Both the position numbers and the translations under genes were made by a program. 4,627 nucleotides of DNA from the IMG/VR virus record IMGVR_UViG_3300029095_000166, one strand, 5' to 3'. Each line of letters opens with the position of its first letter. The first letter of the stretch is position 1. Below, in pieces: positions 1 to 4,627 of this stretch. The notes under the pieces were generated by a model. That model made no database searches, was not told the DNA's origin, and was given only the letters and a program-made list of their open reading frames with translations. Source of the stretch: a virus. Lineage: Duplodnaviria; Heunggongvirae; Uroviricota; Caudoviricetes.

Positions 1-2153
1 CGGGGGCAGGCACACCGCGCCGGGCTGTGGCTGATTAAAACAGAACTGCTGGAAACGCAGACCGTGGATTTCAGCGTCGGCGCAGAAGGGCTTCGCCATG
101 TACCGGGCGATGTTATTGAAATCTGTGATGATGACTATGCCGGTATCAGCACCGGTGGTCGTGTGCTGGCGGTGAACAGCCAGACCCGGACGCTGACGCT
201 CGACCGTGAAATCACGCTGCCATCCTCCGGTACCACGCTGATAAGCCTGGTTGACGGGAGTGGCAATCCGGTCAGCGTGGAGGTTCAGTCCGTCACCGAC
301 GGCGTGAAGGTAAAAGTGAGCCGTGTTCCTGACGGTGTTGCTGAATACAGCGTATGGGGGCTGAAGCTGCCGACGCTGCGCCAGCGACTGTTCCGCTGCG
401 TGAGTATCCGTGAGAACGACGACGGCACGTATGCCATCACCGCCGTGCAGCATGTACCGGAGAAAGAAGCCATCGTGGATAACGGGGCGCACTTTGACGG
501 CGACCAGAGCGGCACGGTGAATGGTGTCACGCCGCCAGCAGTGCAGCATCTGACCGCCGAAGTCACTGCAGACAGCGGGGAATATCAGGTGCTGGCGCGA
601 TGGGACACACCGAAGGTGGTGAAGGGCGTGAGCTTCCTGCTCCGTCTGACCGTGACAGTGGATGACGGCAGTGAGCGGCTGGTCAGCACAGCCAGGACGA
701 CGGAAACCACATACCGCTTCACACAACTGGCGCTGGGGAACTACAGGCTGACAGTCCGGGCAGTAAATGCGTGGGGGCAGCAGGGCGATCCGGCATCGGT
801 ATCGTTCCGGATTGCCGCACCGGCAGCGCCGTCGCAGATTGAGCTGACACCGGGGTATTTTCAGATAACCGCCACGCCGCATCTTGCGGTTTATGATCCG
901 ACTGTACAGTTTGATTTCTGGTTCTCGGAAAAGCGGATTGCGGATATCAGGCAGGTTGAAACCACAGCACGCTATCTTGGCACGGCGCTGTACTGGATAG
1001 CCGCCAGTATCAATATCAAACCGGGCCATGATTATTATTTTTACGTTCGCAGTGTGAACACTGTTGGCAAATCGGCATTCGTGGAGGCTGTCGGTCAGCC
1101 GAGTGATGACGCATCCGGCTATCTGGATTTTTTCAAAGGAGAGATAGGGAAAACACACCTGGCTCAGGAGTTGTGGACGCAGATTGATAACGGTCAGCTT
1201 GCGCCTGACCTGGCTGAAATCAGGACNNNNNNNNNNNNNNNNNNNNNNNNNNNNNNNNNNNNNNNNNNNNNNNNCAGAGTGCAGCGATCCAGCAGATACA
1301 GAAGGTTCAGGTTGATACAAATAATAACCTGAACAGCATGTGGGCTGTGAAGCTGCAGCAGATGCAGGACGGGCGCCTTTATATCGCGGGTATTGGTGCC
1401 GGTATTGAGAACACCCCTGACGGCATGCAGAGTCAGGTGCTGCTGGCGGCGGACAGGATTGCGATGGTTAATCCTGCGAATGGCAACACAAAGCCGATGT
1501 TTGTTGGTCAGGGCGATCAGATATTCATGAACGAAGTGTTCCTGAAATATCTGACGGCTCCCACCATTACCAGCGGCGGTAATCCTCCGGCATTTTCCCT
1601 GACACCGGACGGGCGGCTGACGGCGAAAAATGCGGATATCAGCGGTAACGTGAACGCGAACTCCGGGACGCTCAACAATGTCACGATTAATCAGAACTGC
1701 CGGATTCTGGGAAAACTGTCAGCCAACCAGATTGAAGGCGATATTGTTAAAACGGTGGGAAAAGCCTTTCCGAGAAATGGCAGTTATGCCAGCGGTACAA
1801 TAACGGTCACTGTGTACGATGACCAGGCTTTTGACCGTCAGATAGTAGTCCCCCCCGTTCTGTTTCGTGGGGGTAAGCATGAAAACTTCAACAGCAACAA
1901 CCAACAGTCATACTGGTATTCAACCTGTAAGCTGCAGGTACTGAAGAACGGACAGGAAATCTTTCAGCAACCCGCGACGGATGTCAGCAGGGTATTTTCA
2001 TCAGTCATTGATATGCCTGCCGGACACGGCCATGTCACCCTGACTTTCAATGTTTCTTCATATGGTGCTAATAACTGGACGCCAACGACCAGTATCAGCG
2101 ACCTTCTTGTTGTTGTGATGAAGAAATCTACAGCCGGTATCAGTATCAGTTGA
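1..2153 (+). CDS. J: Host-specificity / central tail fiber protein J (lambda gpJ family), 5'-partial; reading frame interrupted by the N run at 1227-1274
   Basis: The ORF is open from base 1 (frame of 64..1332) with no stop, so the gene starts upstream of the window. The translation (..[69 protein letters not shown].., FN3-like segments such as [32 protein letters not shown]) matches my recollection of lambda J and its E. coli prophage homologues. After the N run the J-like sequence continues in a different frame from 1275 ([41 protein letters not shown]...[20 protein letters not shown]...) to TGA at 2151-2153. The ORF-track pieces 64..1332 and 1338..2153 are therefore one gene; the tail after the X run in the first piece (RVQRSS...) is a frame artefact. 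Confidence 0.9.
1227..1274. other. Run of 48 N (assembly gap or masked bases) inside the J coding sequence
   Basis: Directly visible. The flanking J frames differ (pre-gap codons start at positions congruent to 1 mod 3, post-gap at 0 mod 3), so the true missing segment must have a length congruent to 1 mod 3 if J is intact. Confidence 0.95.
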
Positions 2154-2171: not shown

Positions 2172-2200
2172 GGGTGCCAGAAATGGCGCCTTTTTTATTT
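2172..2200 (+). terminator. Putative intrinsic (rho-independent) terminator between J and the side tail fiber gene
   Basis: GGTGCC (2173-2178) can pair with GGCGCC (2185-2190) as a 6-bp GC-rich stem with one G.U pair and a 6-nt loop (AGAAAT), followed immediately by TTTTTTATTT (2191-2200). It lies 19 nt after the J stop codon. Judged by eye, no folding energy computed. Confidence 0.45.
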
Positions 2201-2202
2201 GT

Positions 2203-2206
2203 GGAG
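2203..2206 (+). promoter_or_regulatory. Shine-Dalgarno-like GGAG for the side tail fiber gene
   Basis: GGAG lies 5 nt upstream of ATG 2212. Confidence 0.5.
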
Positions 2207-2211
2207 TGAAT

Positions 2212-4233
2212 ATGGCAGTACAGATTTCAGGCGTGCTGAAAGACGGTGCAGGAAAACCGATACAGAACTGCACCATTCAGCTCAAAGCAAAACGTAACAG
2301 CACCACGGTTGTGGTGAACACGGTGGCCTCAGAAAATCCGGATGAAGCCGGACGTTACAGCATGGATGTCGAGTATGGCCAGTACAGCGTTATCCTGCTG
2401 GTTGAAGGTTTTCCGCCTTCACATGCCGGGACCATCACCGTGTATGAGGATTCTAAGCCGGGGACATTGAATGATTTTCTGGGCGCTGCAACAGAAGATG
2501 ATGTTCGTCCGGAGGCACTGTATCGTTTTGAAAAGATGGTGGAAGAGGCGGCACGCAACGCTGAAGCCGCCTCTCAGAGCGCAGCGGCAGCAAAGAAATC
2601 CGAAACAGCAGCGGCATCGTCCAGGAACGCGGCGAAAACATCAGAGACGAATGCAGGTAACAGCGCGAAAGCGGCAGCTTCTTCAAAAACAGCCGCACAA
2701 AATGCAGCAACAGCGGCAGAACATTCAGAGACAAATGCCCGTGCGTCAGAGGAAGCCTCCGCAGACAGTGAAGAGGCTTCCCGCCGTAATGCAGAGTCAG
2801 CCGCTGAAAATGCCGGAATCGCCACCACAAAAGCGCGGGAGGCCGCAGCAGACGCAACAAAGGCCGGGCAGAAAAAGGATGAGGCTCTGTCGGCAGCGAC
2901 ACGAGCAGAAAAGGCGGCAGACCGCGCAGAAGCCGCAGCGGAAGTGACTGCAGAGCCCTATGCGAATATAGTGCCGCCGCTGCCTGATGTATGGATACCG
3001 TTTAACGATACACTGGATATGATTACGGGGTTTTCGCCATCATATAAAAAGATTGTTATTGGTGACGATGAAATAACAATGCCAGGCGACAAGATTGTTA
3101 AGTTTAAACGTGCTTCAACAGCAACGTATATTAATAAGTCCGGCCAACTCAAGCTTGCTGAAGTTGATGAACCGCGATTTGAGCGCGATGGCTTATTGAT
3201 TGAAGGACAGAGGACAAATTATCTGAGGAACTCAAATAAACCAGACTCATGGACTGTTCATTCCGCACTGAATAAAACATTTGGCACTGATAAACAGGGG
3301 TTCAATTATGCCACGGTGACACCCACGGAAAGTATAGTGGGAACAACAGGTGGCTATACTGTGCATGGTGTGGTTGCAGCAGACAGATTCCCGCTGGCAA
3401 GTGGTGAATGTTTCACTTTTTCGTGCCGGGTTAAAGGCGCTAAAGCACGATGCAGGTTAAGAGTTTCAGTTATTATTGGTGGAACAGATACCTTCTCTGC
3501 TGACTCTTATCTTGATCTGGATACCCGGATCGCAACAGTAAGCGGTAATACATCCCTTATAACAGCCAAAGCTGAACAACAGGGCGAGTGGACCTACTAT
3601 GAGGCCACTTATACAGCTAATACGGACATTGATACCGTTAACTGTGCTTTTTATATGACAAATAAAATAAGTAATGAGCCATTCTATGATGACTCAACAT
3701 TAACCATGACGACGCCGCAAATTGAACTGGGCAATACGGCATCGTCATTTATTGTAACTACAATGCCAACAACACGCGCAAGTGATGTGGTTACTATCCC
3801 CTCGGAGAATAACCTGTCAACACGGCCTTTTACGGTATTGTGCGAAGTAAGGAGGAACTGGAGTACACCGCCCAATGTTGCGCCAAGGATATTTGATGTT
3901 GGAGGGCACAGTATTGATGATAATTATTTATCGCTGGGGTTTGTTTCAACAGGAAAGATAAGCGCCAACGTAGGAATGGTTCAGCCACAAATAGCCGCAG
4001 ATGGAGAAAGGTTCATTGTGGGGGTGAGAGCTAAATCCGATTTATCAGTAAATGCAATATGCAATGGTAATTATACAACAAACCTTAATGGTAAAATATT
4101 TGGCATTACAGCAACATCGTACCGGTTTGGTGGGCAGACCGCAGCAGGAACGCGTCATTTGTTTGGACACATCAGAAATTTCAGAGTCTGGTTTAAAGAA
4201 TTAAATGACAGGCAAATAAAGGAGGCAGTATGA
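2212..4233 (+). CDS. stf: Side tail fiber protein, mosaic: lambda Stf-like N-terminal domain and Ala/Ser/Thr/Glu-rich shaft fused to a distinct C-terminal lectin-like receptor-binding module (674 aa)
   Basis: The N-terminus MAVQISGVLKDGAGKPIQNCTIQLKAKRNSTTVVVNTVASENPDEAGRYSMDVEYGQYSVILLVEGFPPSHAGTITVYEDSKPGTLNDFL closely matches my recollection of lambda Stf (orf401). I chose ATG 2212, preceded by GGAG, over the GTG at 2206 reported in the ORF track because Stf homologues begin MAV.ISG. A shaft rich in SETNA-like quasi-repeats follows (about 2540-2950). The C-terminal part (from about 2950) has no resemblance to the lambda Stf / T4 gp37-type distal region and ends with LFGHIRNFRVWFKELNDRQIKEAV, which resembles the terminal beta-strand motif of LamG / concanavalin-A-like jelly-roll domains. 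Stop TGA at 4231-4233. Confidence 0.88.
   Translation: MAVQISGVLKDGAGKPIQNCTIQLKAKRNSTTVVVNTVASENPDEAGRYSMDVEYGQYSVILLVEGFPPSHAGTITVYEDSKPGTLNDFLGAATEDDVRPEALYRFEKMVEEAARNAEAASQSAAAAKKSETAAASSRNAAKTSETNAGNSAKAAASSKTAAQNAATAAEHSETNARASEEASADSEEASRRNAESAAENAGIATTKAREAAADATKAGQKKDEALSAATRAEKAADRAEAAAEVTAEPYANIVPPLPDVWIPFNDTLDMITGFSPSYKKIVIGDDEITMPGDKIVKFKRASTATYINKSGQLKLAEVDEPRFERDGLLIEGQRTNYLRNSNKPDSWTVHSALNKTFGTDKQGFNYATVTPTESIVGTTGGYTVHGVVAADRFPLASGECFTFSCRVKGAKARCRLRVSVIIGGTDTFSADSYLDLDTRIATVSGNTSLITAKAEQQGEWTYYEATYTANTDIDTVNCAFYMTNKISNEPFYDDSTLTMTTPQIELGNTASSFIVTTMPTTRASDVVTIPSENNLSTRPFTVLCEVRRNWSTPPNVAPRIFDVGGHSIDDNYLSLGFVSTGKISANVGMVQPQIAADGERFIVGVRAKSDLSVNAICNGNYTTNLNGKIFGITATSYRFGGQTAAGTRHLFGHIRNFRVWFKELNDRQIKEAV
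2560..2950 (+). repeat. Low-complexity quasi-repetitive coding region (Ala/Ser/Thr/Glu-rich fiber shaft)
   Basis: Protein-level degenerate repeats (KKSETAAASSRNAAKTSETNAGNSAKAAASSKTAAQNAATAAEHSETNARASEEAS...) and DNA-level near-repeats such as tcagagacgaatgc (about 2640) and tcagagacaaatgc (about 2725). The composition bias leaves alternative frames on both strands open (spurious ORFs 2453..2902-, 2471..2947+, 2574..2828-). Confidence 0.6.
4220..4225 (+). promoter_or_regulatory. Shine-Dalgarno AGGAGG for the coupled small ORF
   Basis: AGGAGG lies 4 nt upstream of ATG 4230, inside the 3' end of the fiber gene. Confidence 0.55.
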
Positions 4234-4508
4234 AAGATTTAACTTTGAAATTTCCTGGTAACAGAGAGTTTAAATCCTTCCTGTCATCTCTTGACTGGGA
4301 GGAAGATGAAGACCTCCAGAATAAACTGTTAGTTGATGAAATTGGTTTCACCTACACAGAAACAGGGGTAACAGAAGAGGGAGAACCTGTCTGTATCCGG
4401 AATGACGGTTATTTTGTCAACATTCGCATCCTTGATGACGCGTTTGATGTTTCTGTATTCTCTGATTATGTTGTGGAGCTGGAAACACCGCTTCGTGAAT
4501 GGAGCTGA
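4230..4508 (+). CDS. Hypothetical small acidic protein (92 aa), translationally coupled to the side tail fiber gene; function unknown, candidate fiber accessory or chaperone
   Basis: The ATG at 4230-4232 overlaps the fiber stop TGA 4231-4233 (ATGA arrangement) and has a strong upstream AGGAGG. The ORF is 92 codons, AT-rich like the fiber C-terminal module, and strongly acidic (about 22 Asp+Glu against about 8 Lys+Arg, counted by eye). It does not match my recollection of Tfa family chaperones, which are about 190 aa. Confidence 0.65.
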   Translation: MKDLTLKFPGNREFKSFLSSLDWEEDEDLQNKLLVDEIGFTYTETGVTEEGEPVCIRNDGYFVNIRILDDAFDVSVFSDYVVELETPLREWS

Positions 4509-4509
4509 A

Positions 4510-4515
4510 AGGAGG
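4510..4515 (+). promoter_or_regulatory. Shine-Dalgarno AGGAGG for the downstream membrane-protein ORF
   Basis: AGGAGG lies 5 nt upstream of ATG 4521. Confidence 0.55.
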
Positions 4516-4520
4516 AAATA

Positions 4521-4627
4521 ATGGATATAAGCCCCTTACTTCATGCACTTTGTGCTGTGGCTGCGCAGGTACTGGTTGGTCTTTTTACCGGGAACTGGGC
4601 TTACGGAGCGATAGCCGGTTGTACGTT
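4521..4627 (+). CDS. Hypothetical hydrophobic (probably inner-membrane) protein, 3'-partial (first 35 codons only)
   Basis: ATG at 4521 with a strong AGGAGG upstream, starting 12 nt after the stop of the small acidic ORF. The translation MDISPLLHALCAVAAQVLVGLFTGNWAYGAIAGCT is dominated by hydrophobic and small residues, consistent with a transmembrane helix. The ORF runs off the window, so product identity is unknown. Confidence 0.5.
   Translation, partial: MDISPLLHALCAVAAQVLVGLFTGNWAYGAIAGCT

What the first reader, a model, noticed from the sequence alone, without database searches (positions are those of the whole stretch)
2940..4510. Base-composition shift marks a recombination junction inside the fiber gene
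By eye, the J gene and the 5' part of the fiber gene are GC-rich (roughly mid-50s percent in stretches I counted, e.g. 121-180), whereas from about 2950 onward the fiber gene and the small acidic ORF are clearly AT-richer (about one third GC in 3001-3060). The switch coincides with the end of the Ala/Ser-rich shaft. This is the signature expected for horizontal acquisition of a receptor-binding cassette by recombination at the shaft.
Basis: seen in the sequence. Interest (0 to 1): 0.5.

Follow-up and report, generated by a model that had tools for sequence, protein, structure and literature searches.

The report
Mosaic junction in prophage tail fibre
The drop in G+C at about position 2950-3000 is real and lies at a genuine module boundary of a lambda-like side tail fibre gene, where receptor-binding ends are swapped between phages; this is a well-known kind of mosaicism in a gene already sequenced many times.

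Summary
Observation confirmed. G+C falls from 0.55 (fibre 2212-2939; 0.58 in the Ala-rich shaft) to 0.43 (2940-4510). The change-point is at 2987 (support 2952-3042), with a log-likelihood ratio of 17.9 against at most 10.1 in 200 shuffles.

About 58% of the step comes from amino-acid composition alone: a shaft with 35% Ala abuts a beta-rich domain. The synonymous part is real (GC3 0.49 to 0.37, z=3.3) but sits on a gradual decline from J to ORF92.

Homology, which does not depend on composition, places a junction at the same spot:
- Fibres of unrelated phages (Nonagvirus JenP2, a T5-like phage, a Drexlerviridae phage) are 18-35% identical before residue 249 and 85-88% identical after it.
- Most of the 150 listed matches, out of 1386 protein clusters at E ≤0.001, begin at 'PLPDVW' (~2974).
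- Against phage 21 the mismatch rate jumps from 1.6% to 31% at 3025 (3010-3030) and falls back at 4276.

The swapped cassette is therefore about 3025-4275. It is flanked by a 48-nt block (2977-3024) conserved in every phage compared.

The same G+C step occurs in lambdoid relatives that carry other alleles, so it does not date a recent acquisition. The whole gene is 98.3% identical to fibres of a dozen sequenced phages and is present in 515 E. coli genomes. This is ordinary tail-fibre mosaicism.

The parts
64..2153 (+). 3' two-thirds of the central tail fibre gene J (context). It is interrupted by a run of 48 N at 1227-1274. Its receptor-binding end (~1700-2112) is itself variable between relatives.
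   Evidence: PF09327 and PF12421 hits. 93-96% DNA identity to J of lambdoid phages; homology is lost over 1700-2112 in L001 and L010.
2172..2191 (+). Terminator-like hairpin followed by a T-run, between J and the fibre gene.
   Evidence: Pattern scan. The same site is annotated as a terminator in phage 21.
2212..4233 (+). Side tail fibre gene (673 aa from the ATG at 2212; the ORF list starts it at a GTG at 2206).
   Evidence: ORF list. 98.3% DNA identity to fibres of 12 phage records (11 distinct lambdoid phages). At least 80% of the query (fibre gene to the window end, 2206-4627) is covered in 515 E. coli genomes. The exact protein occurs in gut-metagenome contigs.
2212..2604 (+). N-terminal tail-attachment domain (PF08400, residues 1-131). 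It is the only part shared with lambda Stf.
   Evidence: PF08400 E=8.9e-69. Residues 1-110 are 86% identical to lambda orf-401, with nothing further matching. The PDB chain 9e7m/9mgh 'Tail fiber protein' matches residues 1-94.
2503..2955 (+). Ala/Glu/Ser-rich shaft (residues 98-248; 35% Ala), G+C 0.58, very high AT skew. Its length varies between relatives, with a break in homology at ~2738.
   Evidence: Composition. Degenerate repeats spaced 42/84 nt apart. L003 and L010 have 105 extra residues and lose DNA homology over 2738-2948. The coiled-coil character is inferred from the alpha-helical LtfA shaft of DT57C (PMC10713586).
2977..3024 (+). Conserved junction block encoding PLPDVWIPFNDTLDMI. 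It is the start of the distal module shared across phage families and the candidate crossover site.
   Evidence: 81-96% nt identity in all six phages compared. Alignment. Most of the 150 listed representative hits start here.
2956..3221 (+). 'Adapter' segment (residues 249-337), 85-88% amino-acid identity to Nonagvirus, T5-like and Drexlerviridae fibres.
3025..4275 (+). Cassette exchanged relative to phage-21-type fibres: the rest of the adapter, the binding core, the C-terminal strand and the first 15 codons of ORF92.
   Evidence: Mismatch rate against phage 21: 1.6% before 3025 (support 3010-3030), 31% after it, ~55-60% in the core, 25% over 4122-4275 and 3.1% after 4276.
3222..4121 (+). Hypervariable receptor-binding core (residues 338-637). 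It has two sub-domains that assort independently, with the split at ~3772. NF048003 (GTA_spike_fiber) covers residues 329-523.
4230..4508 (+). ORF92: a small acidic protein (pI 4.05) whose start overlaps the fibre stop codon (ATGA). It always follows fibres that carry this distal module.
4521..4627 (+). Start of a 97-aa membrane-protein ORF, cut by the window end. G+C returns to about 0.50.
   Evidence: The homologue in phage 21 is annotated as a putative membrane protein with 2 TMDs. 97% identity to phage 21 after 4276.

Best explanation
The window holds the tail end of a lambda-like (Jouyvirus-type) prophage: J, a side tail fibre gene, a 92-aa accessory ORF and a small membrane ORF. The fibre is a modular mosaic made of four parts:
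- A lambdoid-specific N-terminal domain anchors it to the tail tip.
- An Ala-rich, presumably trimeric alpha-helical shaft of variable length acts as a spacer.
- From 'PLPDVW' (nt ~2977) onwards there is a distal module of lectin-like (ConA/LamG-type) beta-sandwiches. This module most likely binds a surface glycan such as O-antigen or LPS.
- The co-inherited ORF92 follows; its likely role is fibre assembly or an accessory function.

The distal module belongs to a pool shared by temperate and virulent coliphages. It is exchanged by homologous (or relaxed homologous) recombination in conserved flanks. The left flank is the 48-nt block 2977-3024 (plus the shaft, among close relatives). The right flank is ORF92 and the membrane ORF, from 4276 onwards.

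The G+C step at ~2950-3000 has two superimposed causes:
1. The change from GCN/GAR-rich shaft codons to a Thr/Asn/Ile-rich beta domain, which accounts for about 58% of it.
2. A real drop in synonymous G+C, because the distal module carries the AT-richer composition of that shared pool, while the lambdoid structural arm is G+C-rich.

Shown: the step, the domain boundary, the breakpoints and the predicted fold. Inferred: the glycan receptor, the coiled coil, the recombination mechanism, the direction of transfer and the role of ORF92.
For: Step and statistics.

Architecture: PF08400; NF048003; only residues 1-110 match lambda Stf.

Boundary at ~2974-2983:
- DNA homology with JenP2, Stokescottia and XY3 starts at 2983, 2976 and 2969.
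- Amino-acid identity is 18-35% upstream and 85-88% downstream.
- Motif alignment.
- There are 1386 clusters at E ≤0.001. Of the 150 listed, most match from query residues 5-8 to the C-terminus, in proteins of 300-1500 aa.

Breakpoints against phage 21: 3025 (3010-3030) and 4276 (4276-4283), with mismatch rates of 1.6%, 31% and 3.1%.

Conserved 48-nt block.

Composition of the module in different backgrounds:
- GC3 is 0.37 in lambdoids, against 0.56-0.69 for terS to J.
- In the T5-like phage the module is GC3-richer than the resident part of the gene (0.26 against 0.16).
- In lambdoids and XY3 it is GC3-poorer.
- No 1.5-kb piece of the Lambda_2E9 left arm falls below 0.523 G+C, whereas the module is 0.427.

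Literature:
- Fibre loci of these siphoviruses are conserved only at the far N-terminus and are thought to target O-antigen (PMC8594841).
- stf exchange between temperate and virulent phages is documented (PMC3945230, which cites Haggard-Ljungquist 1992 and Sandmeier 1994).
- Relaxed homologous recombination by Rad52-like recombinases creates mosaics (PMC3945230).
Against: - Most of the sharpness of the G+C step is amino-acid composition, so composition alone would not have established a junction.
- The GC3 change-point is broad (2386-3037), and GC3 is already falling within J and the N-terminal domain.
- The dinucleotide signature of the module is not unusual against the left arm (81.9; 15% of null pieces are as distant).
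- The direction of transfer cannot be told.
- No receptor or binding data exist for this allele.
- ORF92 has no informative homologue or fold.
- In distant phages the 48-nt block is conserved mainly at the protein level (third positions 50-69%). Its role as a DNA crossover site between families is therefore conjecture.
Confidence: 0.85

Rival explanations
1. The G+C step is purely a by-product of protein composition (Ala-rich coiled coil next to a beta-rich domain) and carries no information about recombination. The fibre would be a single vertically inherited unit.
For: Shuffling synonymous codons within the gene still gives a drop of 0.071 out of 0.122. A composition-only drop of 0.04-0.09 is expected in every homologous fibre, including those of virulent phages. 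The whole gene is collinear at 98.3% with known fibres.
Against: GC3 also drops (0.49 to 0.37, z=3.3, 3 of 5000 shuffles reach it). Independent homology evidence puts a sharp boundary and a breakpoint at 2974-3030. The proximal and distal parts have clearly different sets of relatives.
Confidence: 0.07
2. The step records a recent, lineage-specific import of a foreign low-G+C receptor-binding cassette into this particular prophage.
For: The module's G+C (0.427) lies outside the range of all 1.5-kb pieces of the structural arm (0.523-0.609). The nearest non-lambdoid relative is the virulent Nonagvirus JenP2, at 69.7% DNA identity over 2983-4435 and locus G+C 0.42.
Against: The same step is seen in phage 21, ev207 and L003, which carry alleles only 30-40% identical in the binding core. 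This exact mosaic is widespread (515 genomes, a dozen phages). Identity to any non-lambdoid donor is only about 70%, so no recent donor is in hand. The dinucleotide signature is not foreign.
Confidence: 0.06
3. The low G+C from ~2950 onwards simply marks the end of the G+C-rich late-gene 'left arm' typical of lambdoid genomes (segmental composition), unrelated to the fibre's domain structure.
For: In Lambda_2E9 every gene from terS to J has GC3 of 0.56-0.69, and everything after the fibre is 0.38-0.52 in G+C. In lambda itself GC3 declines J 0.68, lom 0.57, stf 0.53/0.48, tfa 0.46. The GC3 decline in the window is gradual.
Against: This describes the large-scale pattern but not why the step falls exactly on a domain boundary and breakpoint. 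G+C rises again to about 0.50-0.52 right after ORF92. It is compatible with the main explanation rather than opposed to it.
Confidence: 0.3

Closest known systems
Side tail fibres of phage 21 and the Jouyvirus/Bievrevirus lambdoid phages (Lambda_2E9, 1H12, PhiR47_2, ev207, Lambda_4C10)
   Same: Same gene order (J, terminator, fibre, 92-aa ORF, 97-aa membrane ORF). Lambda_2E9, 1H12 and PhiR47_2 are 98.3% identical over the whole fibre. Phage 21 is 98.4% identical up to 3024 and 97% identical from 4276.
   Different: Phage 21, ev207 and Lambda_4C10 carry a different cassette between ~3025 and ~4275 (30-33% amino-acid identity in the core). ev207 and L003 also have a shaft 105 residues longer.
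Phage lambda Stf (orf-401/orf-314) with Tfa
   Same: N-terminal attachment domain (residues 1-110, 86% identical; PF08400), position downstream of J, and role as an accessory side fibre.
   Different: No similarity beyond residue 110. No lom between J and the fibre. No Tfa chaperone; ORF92 occupies that position and has no lambda counterpart.
Lateral tail fibre first subunits of virulent siphoviruses (Nonagvirus JenP2, Tequintavirus Stokescottia, Warwickvirus XY3) and a 1479-aa fibre of Vequintavirus
   Same: Distal module from PLPDVW to the C-terminus, plus the 92-aa ORF (adapter 85-88% amino-acid identity; 69.7% DNA identity to JenP2 over 2983-4435). All have an Ala-rich helical shaft upstream.
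   Different: Unrelated N-terminal attachment parts. In those phages a second fibre gene, some annotated endosialidase-like or chaperone of endosialidase, follows the small ORF, implying a branched fibre. None follows in this window.
Classic mosaic tail-fibre genes (P2 H, Mu S, P1 S, lambda stf, T4 gp37/38; Haggard-Ljungquist 1992, Sandmeier 1994, as cited in PMC3945230)
   Same: N-terminal part specific to the phage group, distal receptor-binding part plus the downstream accessory gene shared among unrelated temperate and virulent phages, and sharp junctions.
   Different: The distal fold here is lectin-like (ConA/LamG, NF048003), not the gp37-type tip. No DNA invertase or inversion segment is seen in the window or in the relatives examined. 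The accessory ORF is not a Tfa/gp38-type protein.
RcGTA head spike fibre domain (NF048003)
   Same: Residues 329-523 match the domain model above its cut-off (66.8 against 36 bits). In RcGTA the head spike fibre binds capsular polysaccharide (PMC10218006).
   Different: Here the domain sits at the tip of a tail fibre of a coliphage, not on a capsid vertex. Similarity is at domain level only.

Membership tests
Lambdoid side tail fibre (Stf-type, PF08400 family) | N-terminal 'prophage tail fibre N-terminal' domain | tested here: met
   PF08400 E=8.9e-69, residues 1-131 of 134 profile positions. 86% identity to lambda orf-401 residues 1-110.
Lambdoid side tail fibre (Stf-type, PF08400 family) | Gene located directly downstream of J in a lambda-like tail module | tested here: met
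   J ends at 2153 and the fibre starts at 2212. Same order in phage 21 and Lambda_2E9.
Lambdoid side tail fibre (Stf-type, PF08400 family) | Tfa-type assembly chaperone encoded immediately downstream | tested here: not met
   The downstream ORF92 has no Pfam or NCBIfam hit and no lambda counterpart. It is a different accessory protein (phrog_1361).
Mosaic tail-fibre gene with horizontally exchanged distal cassette | Proximal and distal parts have different sets of relatives, with a sharp identity step | tested here: met
   18-35% against 85-88% amino-acid identity across residue 249 in three unrelated phage families. 1.6% against 31% mismatch across nt 3025 relative to phage 21.
Mosaic tail-fibre gene with horizontally exchanged distal cassette | Distal module found behind many unrelated N-terminal parts | tested here: met
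   Most of the 150 listed matches (of 1386 clusters at E ≤0.001) have the module at the C-terminus, after 10 to more than 1000 unrelated residues. 218 phage records across Escherichia, Salmonella and other hosts.
Mosaic tail-fibre gene with horizontally exchanged distal cassette | Site-specific invertase (cin/gin/pin type) driving the exchange, as in P1, Mu and p15B | tested here: not met
   No invertase gene or inverted cassette in the window or in the annotated loci L001-L013. The window is cut at 4627, so only the relatives speak for the downstream region.
ConA-like lectin / LamG-type carbohydrate-binding fold (incl. NF048003 GTA_spike_fiber) | Sequence match to the domain model above its curated cut-off | tested here: met
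   NF048003 scores 66.8 bits against a cut-off of 36, covering residues 329-523. The Pfam CBM_4_9 match is below its cut-off (22.2 against 25.9).
ConA-like lectin / LamG-type carbohydrate-binding fold (incl. NF048003 GTA_spike_fiber) | Jelly-roll beta-sandwich fold | tested here: met
ConA-like lectin / LamG-type carbohydrate-binding fold (incl. NF048003 GTA_spike_fiber) | Binds a carbohydrate ligand | not testable with these tools
   No binding data. Inferred from the fold and from the role of lateral fibres in related phages (PMC8594841, PMC11990801).
Branched LtfA/LtfB lateral fibre of T5-like phages (DT57C type) | Second fibre gene (LtfB) downstream that attaches through the first | tested here: not met
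   No second fibre gene after ORF92 in the window or in its closest relatives; a 97-aa membrane ORF follows. One is present in Stokescottia, JenP2, XY3 and L003.
Branched LtfA/LtfB lateral fibre of T5-like phages (DT57C type) | C-terminal autocleaving intramolecular chaperone domain (PMC4728585) | tested here: not met
   No such domain in the Pfam or NCBIfam scans of the fibre. The protein ends in a LamG-like terminal strand and helix.

The most novel reading that the evidence does not exclude
The 48-nt block 2977-3024 (PLPDVWIPFNDTLDMI), together with the ORF92 flank, may act as a dedicated, DNA-level 'linker' pair. Such a pair would let one receptor-binding cassette move freely between temperate lambdoid prophages and strictly virulent coliphages (Nonagvirus, T5-like, Drexlerviridae, Vequintavirus). 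That would be a standing gene-flow channel between two phage lifestyles generally thought to exchange little. ORF92 would be a new class of fibre-specific assembly factor that travels with the cassette.
Probability: 0.15. Interest if true: 0.5.

Novelty: already known. Interest (0 to 1): 0.2.

Why it matters
The result matters little for discovery. Mosaic tail fibres with swapped receptor-binding ends are textbook, and this exact gene is in many sequenced phages and E. coli genomes.

Its practical value is as a worked example:
- It shows that a G+C step inside a fibre gene can be mostly an amino-acid-composition effect. Composition alone therefore should not be read as a sign of horizontal transfer.
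- It gives usable coordinates for engineering or typing this fibre family: the junction block at 2977-3024, the cassette at ~3025-4275, and the sub-domain split at ~3772.
- It flags ORF92 as a conserved partner of unknown function for a lectin-like fibre tip found in at least five phage groups.

Tried and rejected
- Tandem Repeats Finder found no array in the shaft. Only degenerate repeats spaced 42/84 nt apart appeared, so no repeat-mediated slippage claim is made.
- The dinucleotide relative-abundance signature did not mark the distal module as foreign, so it is not used as support.
- The first BLAST view suggested breakpoints at 3221 and 4122. Counting mismatches showed that these are only the limits of alignable sequence; the real steps against phage 21 are at 3025 and 4276.
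- The search for homologous proteins with the distal module returned only near-identical proteins and was of no use for an alignment. The representative search supplied the diversity.
- I considered the DT57C LtfA/LtfB model. I rejected membership because there is no second fibre and no autocleaving chaperone domain.
- A literature search for the motif PLPDVW found nothing.
Full report
WHAT IS IN THE WINDOW. The ORF list and domain scans show four features:
- the 3' two-thirds of a lambda-type J gene (64-2153; PF09327 and PF12421);
- a 673-aa side tail fibre gene (2212-4233);
- a 92-aa acidic ORF that overlaps the fibre stop codon (4230-4508);
- the start of a small membrane ORF (4521 onwards).

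The fibre gene through the window end (2206-4627) is 98.3% identical in DNA to 12 phage records, 11 distinct lambdoid phages including Lambda_2E9, 1H12 and PhiR47_2. At least 80% of that query is covered in 515 of 5426 complete E. coli genomes. The exact protein occurs in human-gut metagenome contigs, beside prfC-osmY.

CHECK OF THE OBSERVATION. G+C is 0.554 over fibre 2212-2939 (0.58 in the shaft), 0.429 over 2940-4510 and 0.412 in ORF92. A likelihood change-point falls at 2987 (support 2952-3042) with LLR 17.9; 200 shuffles gave a mean of 2.6 and a maximum of 10.1. The step coincides with the end of the shaft...AEAAAEVTAE|PYANIVPPLPDVW. The shaft is 35% Ala, 14% Glu and 11% Ser. AT skew collapses at the same place.

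HOW MUCH OF THE STEP IS CODON USAGE. I shuffled synonymous codons among positions of the same amino acid within the gene. Amino-acid composition alone then predicts a drop of 0.071 out of the observed 0.122. The rest is synonymous: GC3 goes from 0.488 to 0.374 (z=3.3; 3 of 5000 shuffles reach it).

GC3, however, declines in steps along the whole window:

| Segment | GC3 |
|---|---|
| J 5' part | 0.65 |
| J 3' part | 0.58 |
| Fibre N-domain | 0.53 |
| Shaft | 0.46 |
| Adapter | 0.38 |
| Binding core | 0.37 |
| ORF92 | 0.39 |

Its best single change-point is at 2470, with a wide support interval (2386-3037). In the complete relative Lambda_2E9, every gene from terS to J has GC3 of 0.56-0.69, and the fibre is where that G+C-rich arm ends. 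No 1.5-kb piece of that arm falls below 0.523 G+C, whereas the distal module is 0.427. Its G+C-normalised dinucleotide signature is nonetheless unremarkable: 15% of null pieces are as distant.

INDEPENDENT EVIDENCE FOR A JUNCTION. Three lines of evidence agree.
- DNA homology with fibres of unrelated virulent phages starts at 2983 (Nonagvirus JenP2, 69.7% through to 4435), 2976 (T5-like Stokescottia) and 2969 (Drexlerviridae XY3).
- At the protein level these fibres are 18-35% identical to the window's N-domain and shaft but 85-88% identical over residues 249-337. The shared part begins at the motif PLPDVWIPFNDSLDMITGF.
- A search of 1.84 billion representative proteins found 1386 clusters at E ≤0.001. 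In most of the 150 listed, the match starts at query residues 5-8 (about nt 2974) and runs to the C-terminus, in proteins of 300-1500 aa.

Residue ~256 is therefore a general domain boundary behind which many different N-terminal parts are found.

BREAKPOINTS AMONG CLOSE RELATIVES. Mismatch counts against phage 21:

| Window range | Mismatches | Rate |
|---|---|---|
| 2212-2990 | 11 | 1.4% |
| 2991-3221 | 63 | 27% |
| 3222-4121 (binding core) | not counted exactly | ~55-60% |
| 4122-4275 | 39 | 25% |
| 4276-4627 | 11 | 3.1% |

The maximum-likelihood breakpoints are 3025 (3010-3030) and 4276 (4276-4283). The cassette exchanged between the window type and the phage-21 type is thus about 3025-4275. 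It includes the first 15 codons of ORF92.

Between the domain boundary and the left breakpoint lies a 48-nt block (2977-3024) that is 81-96% identical in every phage compared. This makes it a plausible crossover site.

Further junctions exist:
- ~2738, where shaft length varies: ev207 and L003 have 105 extra residues;
- ~3112-3135 (L003);
- ~3772, which splits the binding core. Residues 338-520 are 61% identical to JenP2 and 36% to Stokescottia, whereas residues 521-637 are 78% and 80% identical;
- ~4122.

IS THE STEP A MARK OF A RECENT IMPORT? No. Phage 21, ev207 and L003 carry cores only 30-40% identical to the window's, yet show the same G+C drop (0.11-0.12) and a GC3 drop of 0.12-0.13. In the T5-like phage the module is GC3-richer than the resident part of the gene (0.26 against 0.16). 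In lambdoids and XY3 it is GC3-poorer. The module therefore keeps an intermediate, AT-leaning composition whatever genome it sits in. That fits a shared, mobile pool, but it does not give the direction or date of any transfer.

WHAT THE PARTS DO.
- N-terminal domain: this is the lambda Stf attachment domain (PF08400). Residues 1-110 are 86% identical to lambda orf-401, and a solved 94-residue chain, 9e7m/9mgh, matches residues 1-94.
- Shaft: probably a trimeric alpha-helical coiled coil, by analogy with the LtfA shaft seen in DT57C (PMC10713586). This is inferred.
- Likely function: lateral fibres of the related siphoviruses are thought to bind O-antigen (PMC8594841, PMC11990801), and the RcGTA spike fibre binds capsule (PMC10218006). 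Non-enzymatic glycan binding is therefore the most likely function. This is inferred and untested.

COMPARISON WITH WHAT IS KNOWN. This is a lambdoid side tail fibre of the phage-21/Jouyvirus type. It shares only the attachment domain with lambda Stf and lacks a Tfa. It resembles the first subunit of branched lateral fibres of virulent siphoviruses, but no second fibre gene follows it.

Exchange of distal fibre parts, together with their downstream accessory gene, among unrelated temperate and virulent phages has been documented since Haggard-Ljungquist 1992 and Sandmeier 1994 (cited in PMC3945230). The same paper shows that Rad52-like phage recombinases create mosaics from short diverged homologies. 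That offers a mechanism for crossovers in the conserved flanks (inferred).

VERDICT. A junction does lie there, but the composition step is mostly amino-acid composition plus a standing property of the locus. The crossover is just past the shaft rather than in it. The gene as a whole is a known, widely distributed mosaic. Novelty: already known. Interest: low.

Noticed in passing
window 1227-1274: The run of 48 N inside J replaces 58 nt of the Lambda_2E9 sequence (L011 3012-3069). The reading frame of J therefore appears to shift across the gap. This is an artefact of masking or gap sizing, not a real frameshift.
   Followed up: partly
window ~1700-2112: The C-terminal receptor-binding end of J is a second, independently swapped cassette. 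SCU-115 (L001) and ev207 (L010) lose DNA homology here but are 85-98% identical from 2113 onwards. G+C also dips to 0.44-0.48.
   Followed up: partly
window 2172-2191: An 8-bp hairpin followed by TTTTTTATTT lies between J and the fibre gene. The same site is annotated as a terminator in phage 21, so the fibre is probably expressed by read-through of the late transcript.
   Followed up: no
L001 9119-11219; L004 5740-8461; L005 6017-8433; L014 4334-6920: The cargo just downstream of the fibre/ORF92/membrane-ORF trio differs between otherwise similar prophages:
- cdtABC (cytolethal distending toxin) in SCU-115;
- sitABCD in phage 21, Lambda_2E9 and N63;
- IS elements in Lambda_4C10;
- two unknown genes plus dinI in the exact-match metagenome contigs.
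   Followed up: no
L001 6007-8028: RefSeq (PGAP) annotates this fibre in strain SCU-115 as two pseudogene fragments ('prophage tail fiber N-terminal domain' and 'phage head spike fiber domain'). The ORF is intact in the window and in the phage genomes, so the Ala-rich shaft appears to defeat the annotation pipeline.
   Followed up: no
window 4230-4508 and L003, L006, L007, L008: In JenP2, Stokescottia, XY3 and prophage L003 the 92-aa ORF is followed by a second fibre gene, some annotated endosialidase-like or chaperone of endosialidase. In the window and in phage 21 it is followed by a membrane ORF instead. ORF92 is thus tied to the first fibre's C-terminus, not to the second fibre.
   Followed up: partly
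window 3025-3072 vs L006: A 48-nt stretch of the adapter is 96% identical (88% at third codon positions) to the virulent Nonagvirus JenP2, well above the 69.7% average for the module. This hints at a more recent small exchange between a temperate and a virulent phage, but the stretch is too short to be sure.
   Followed up: no
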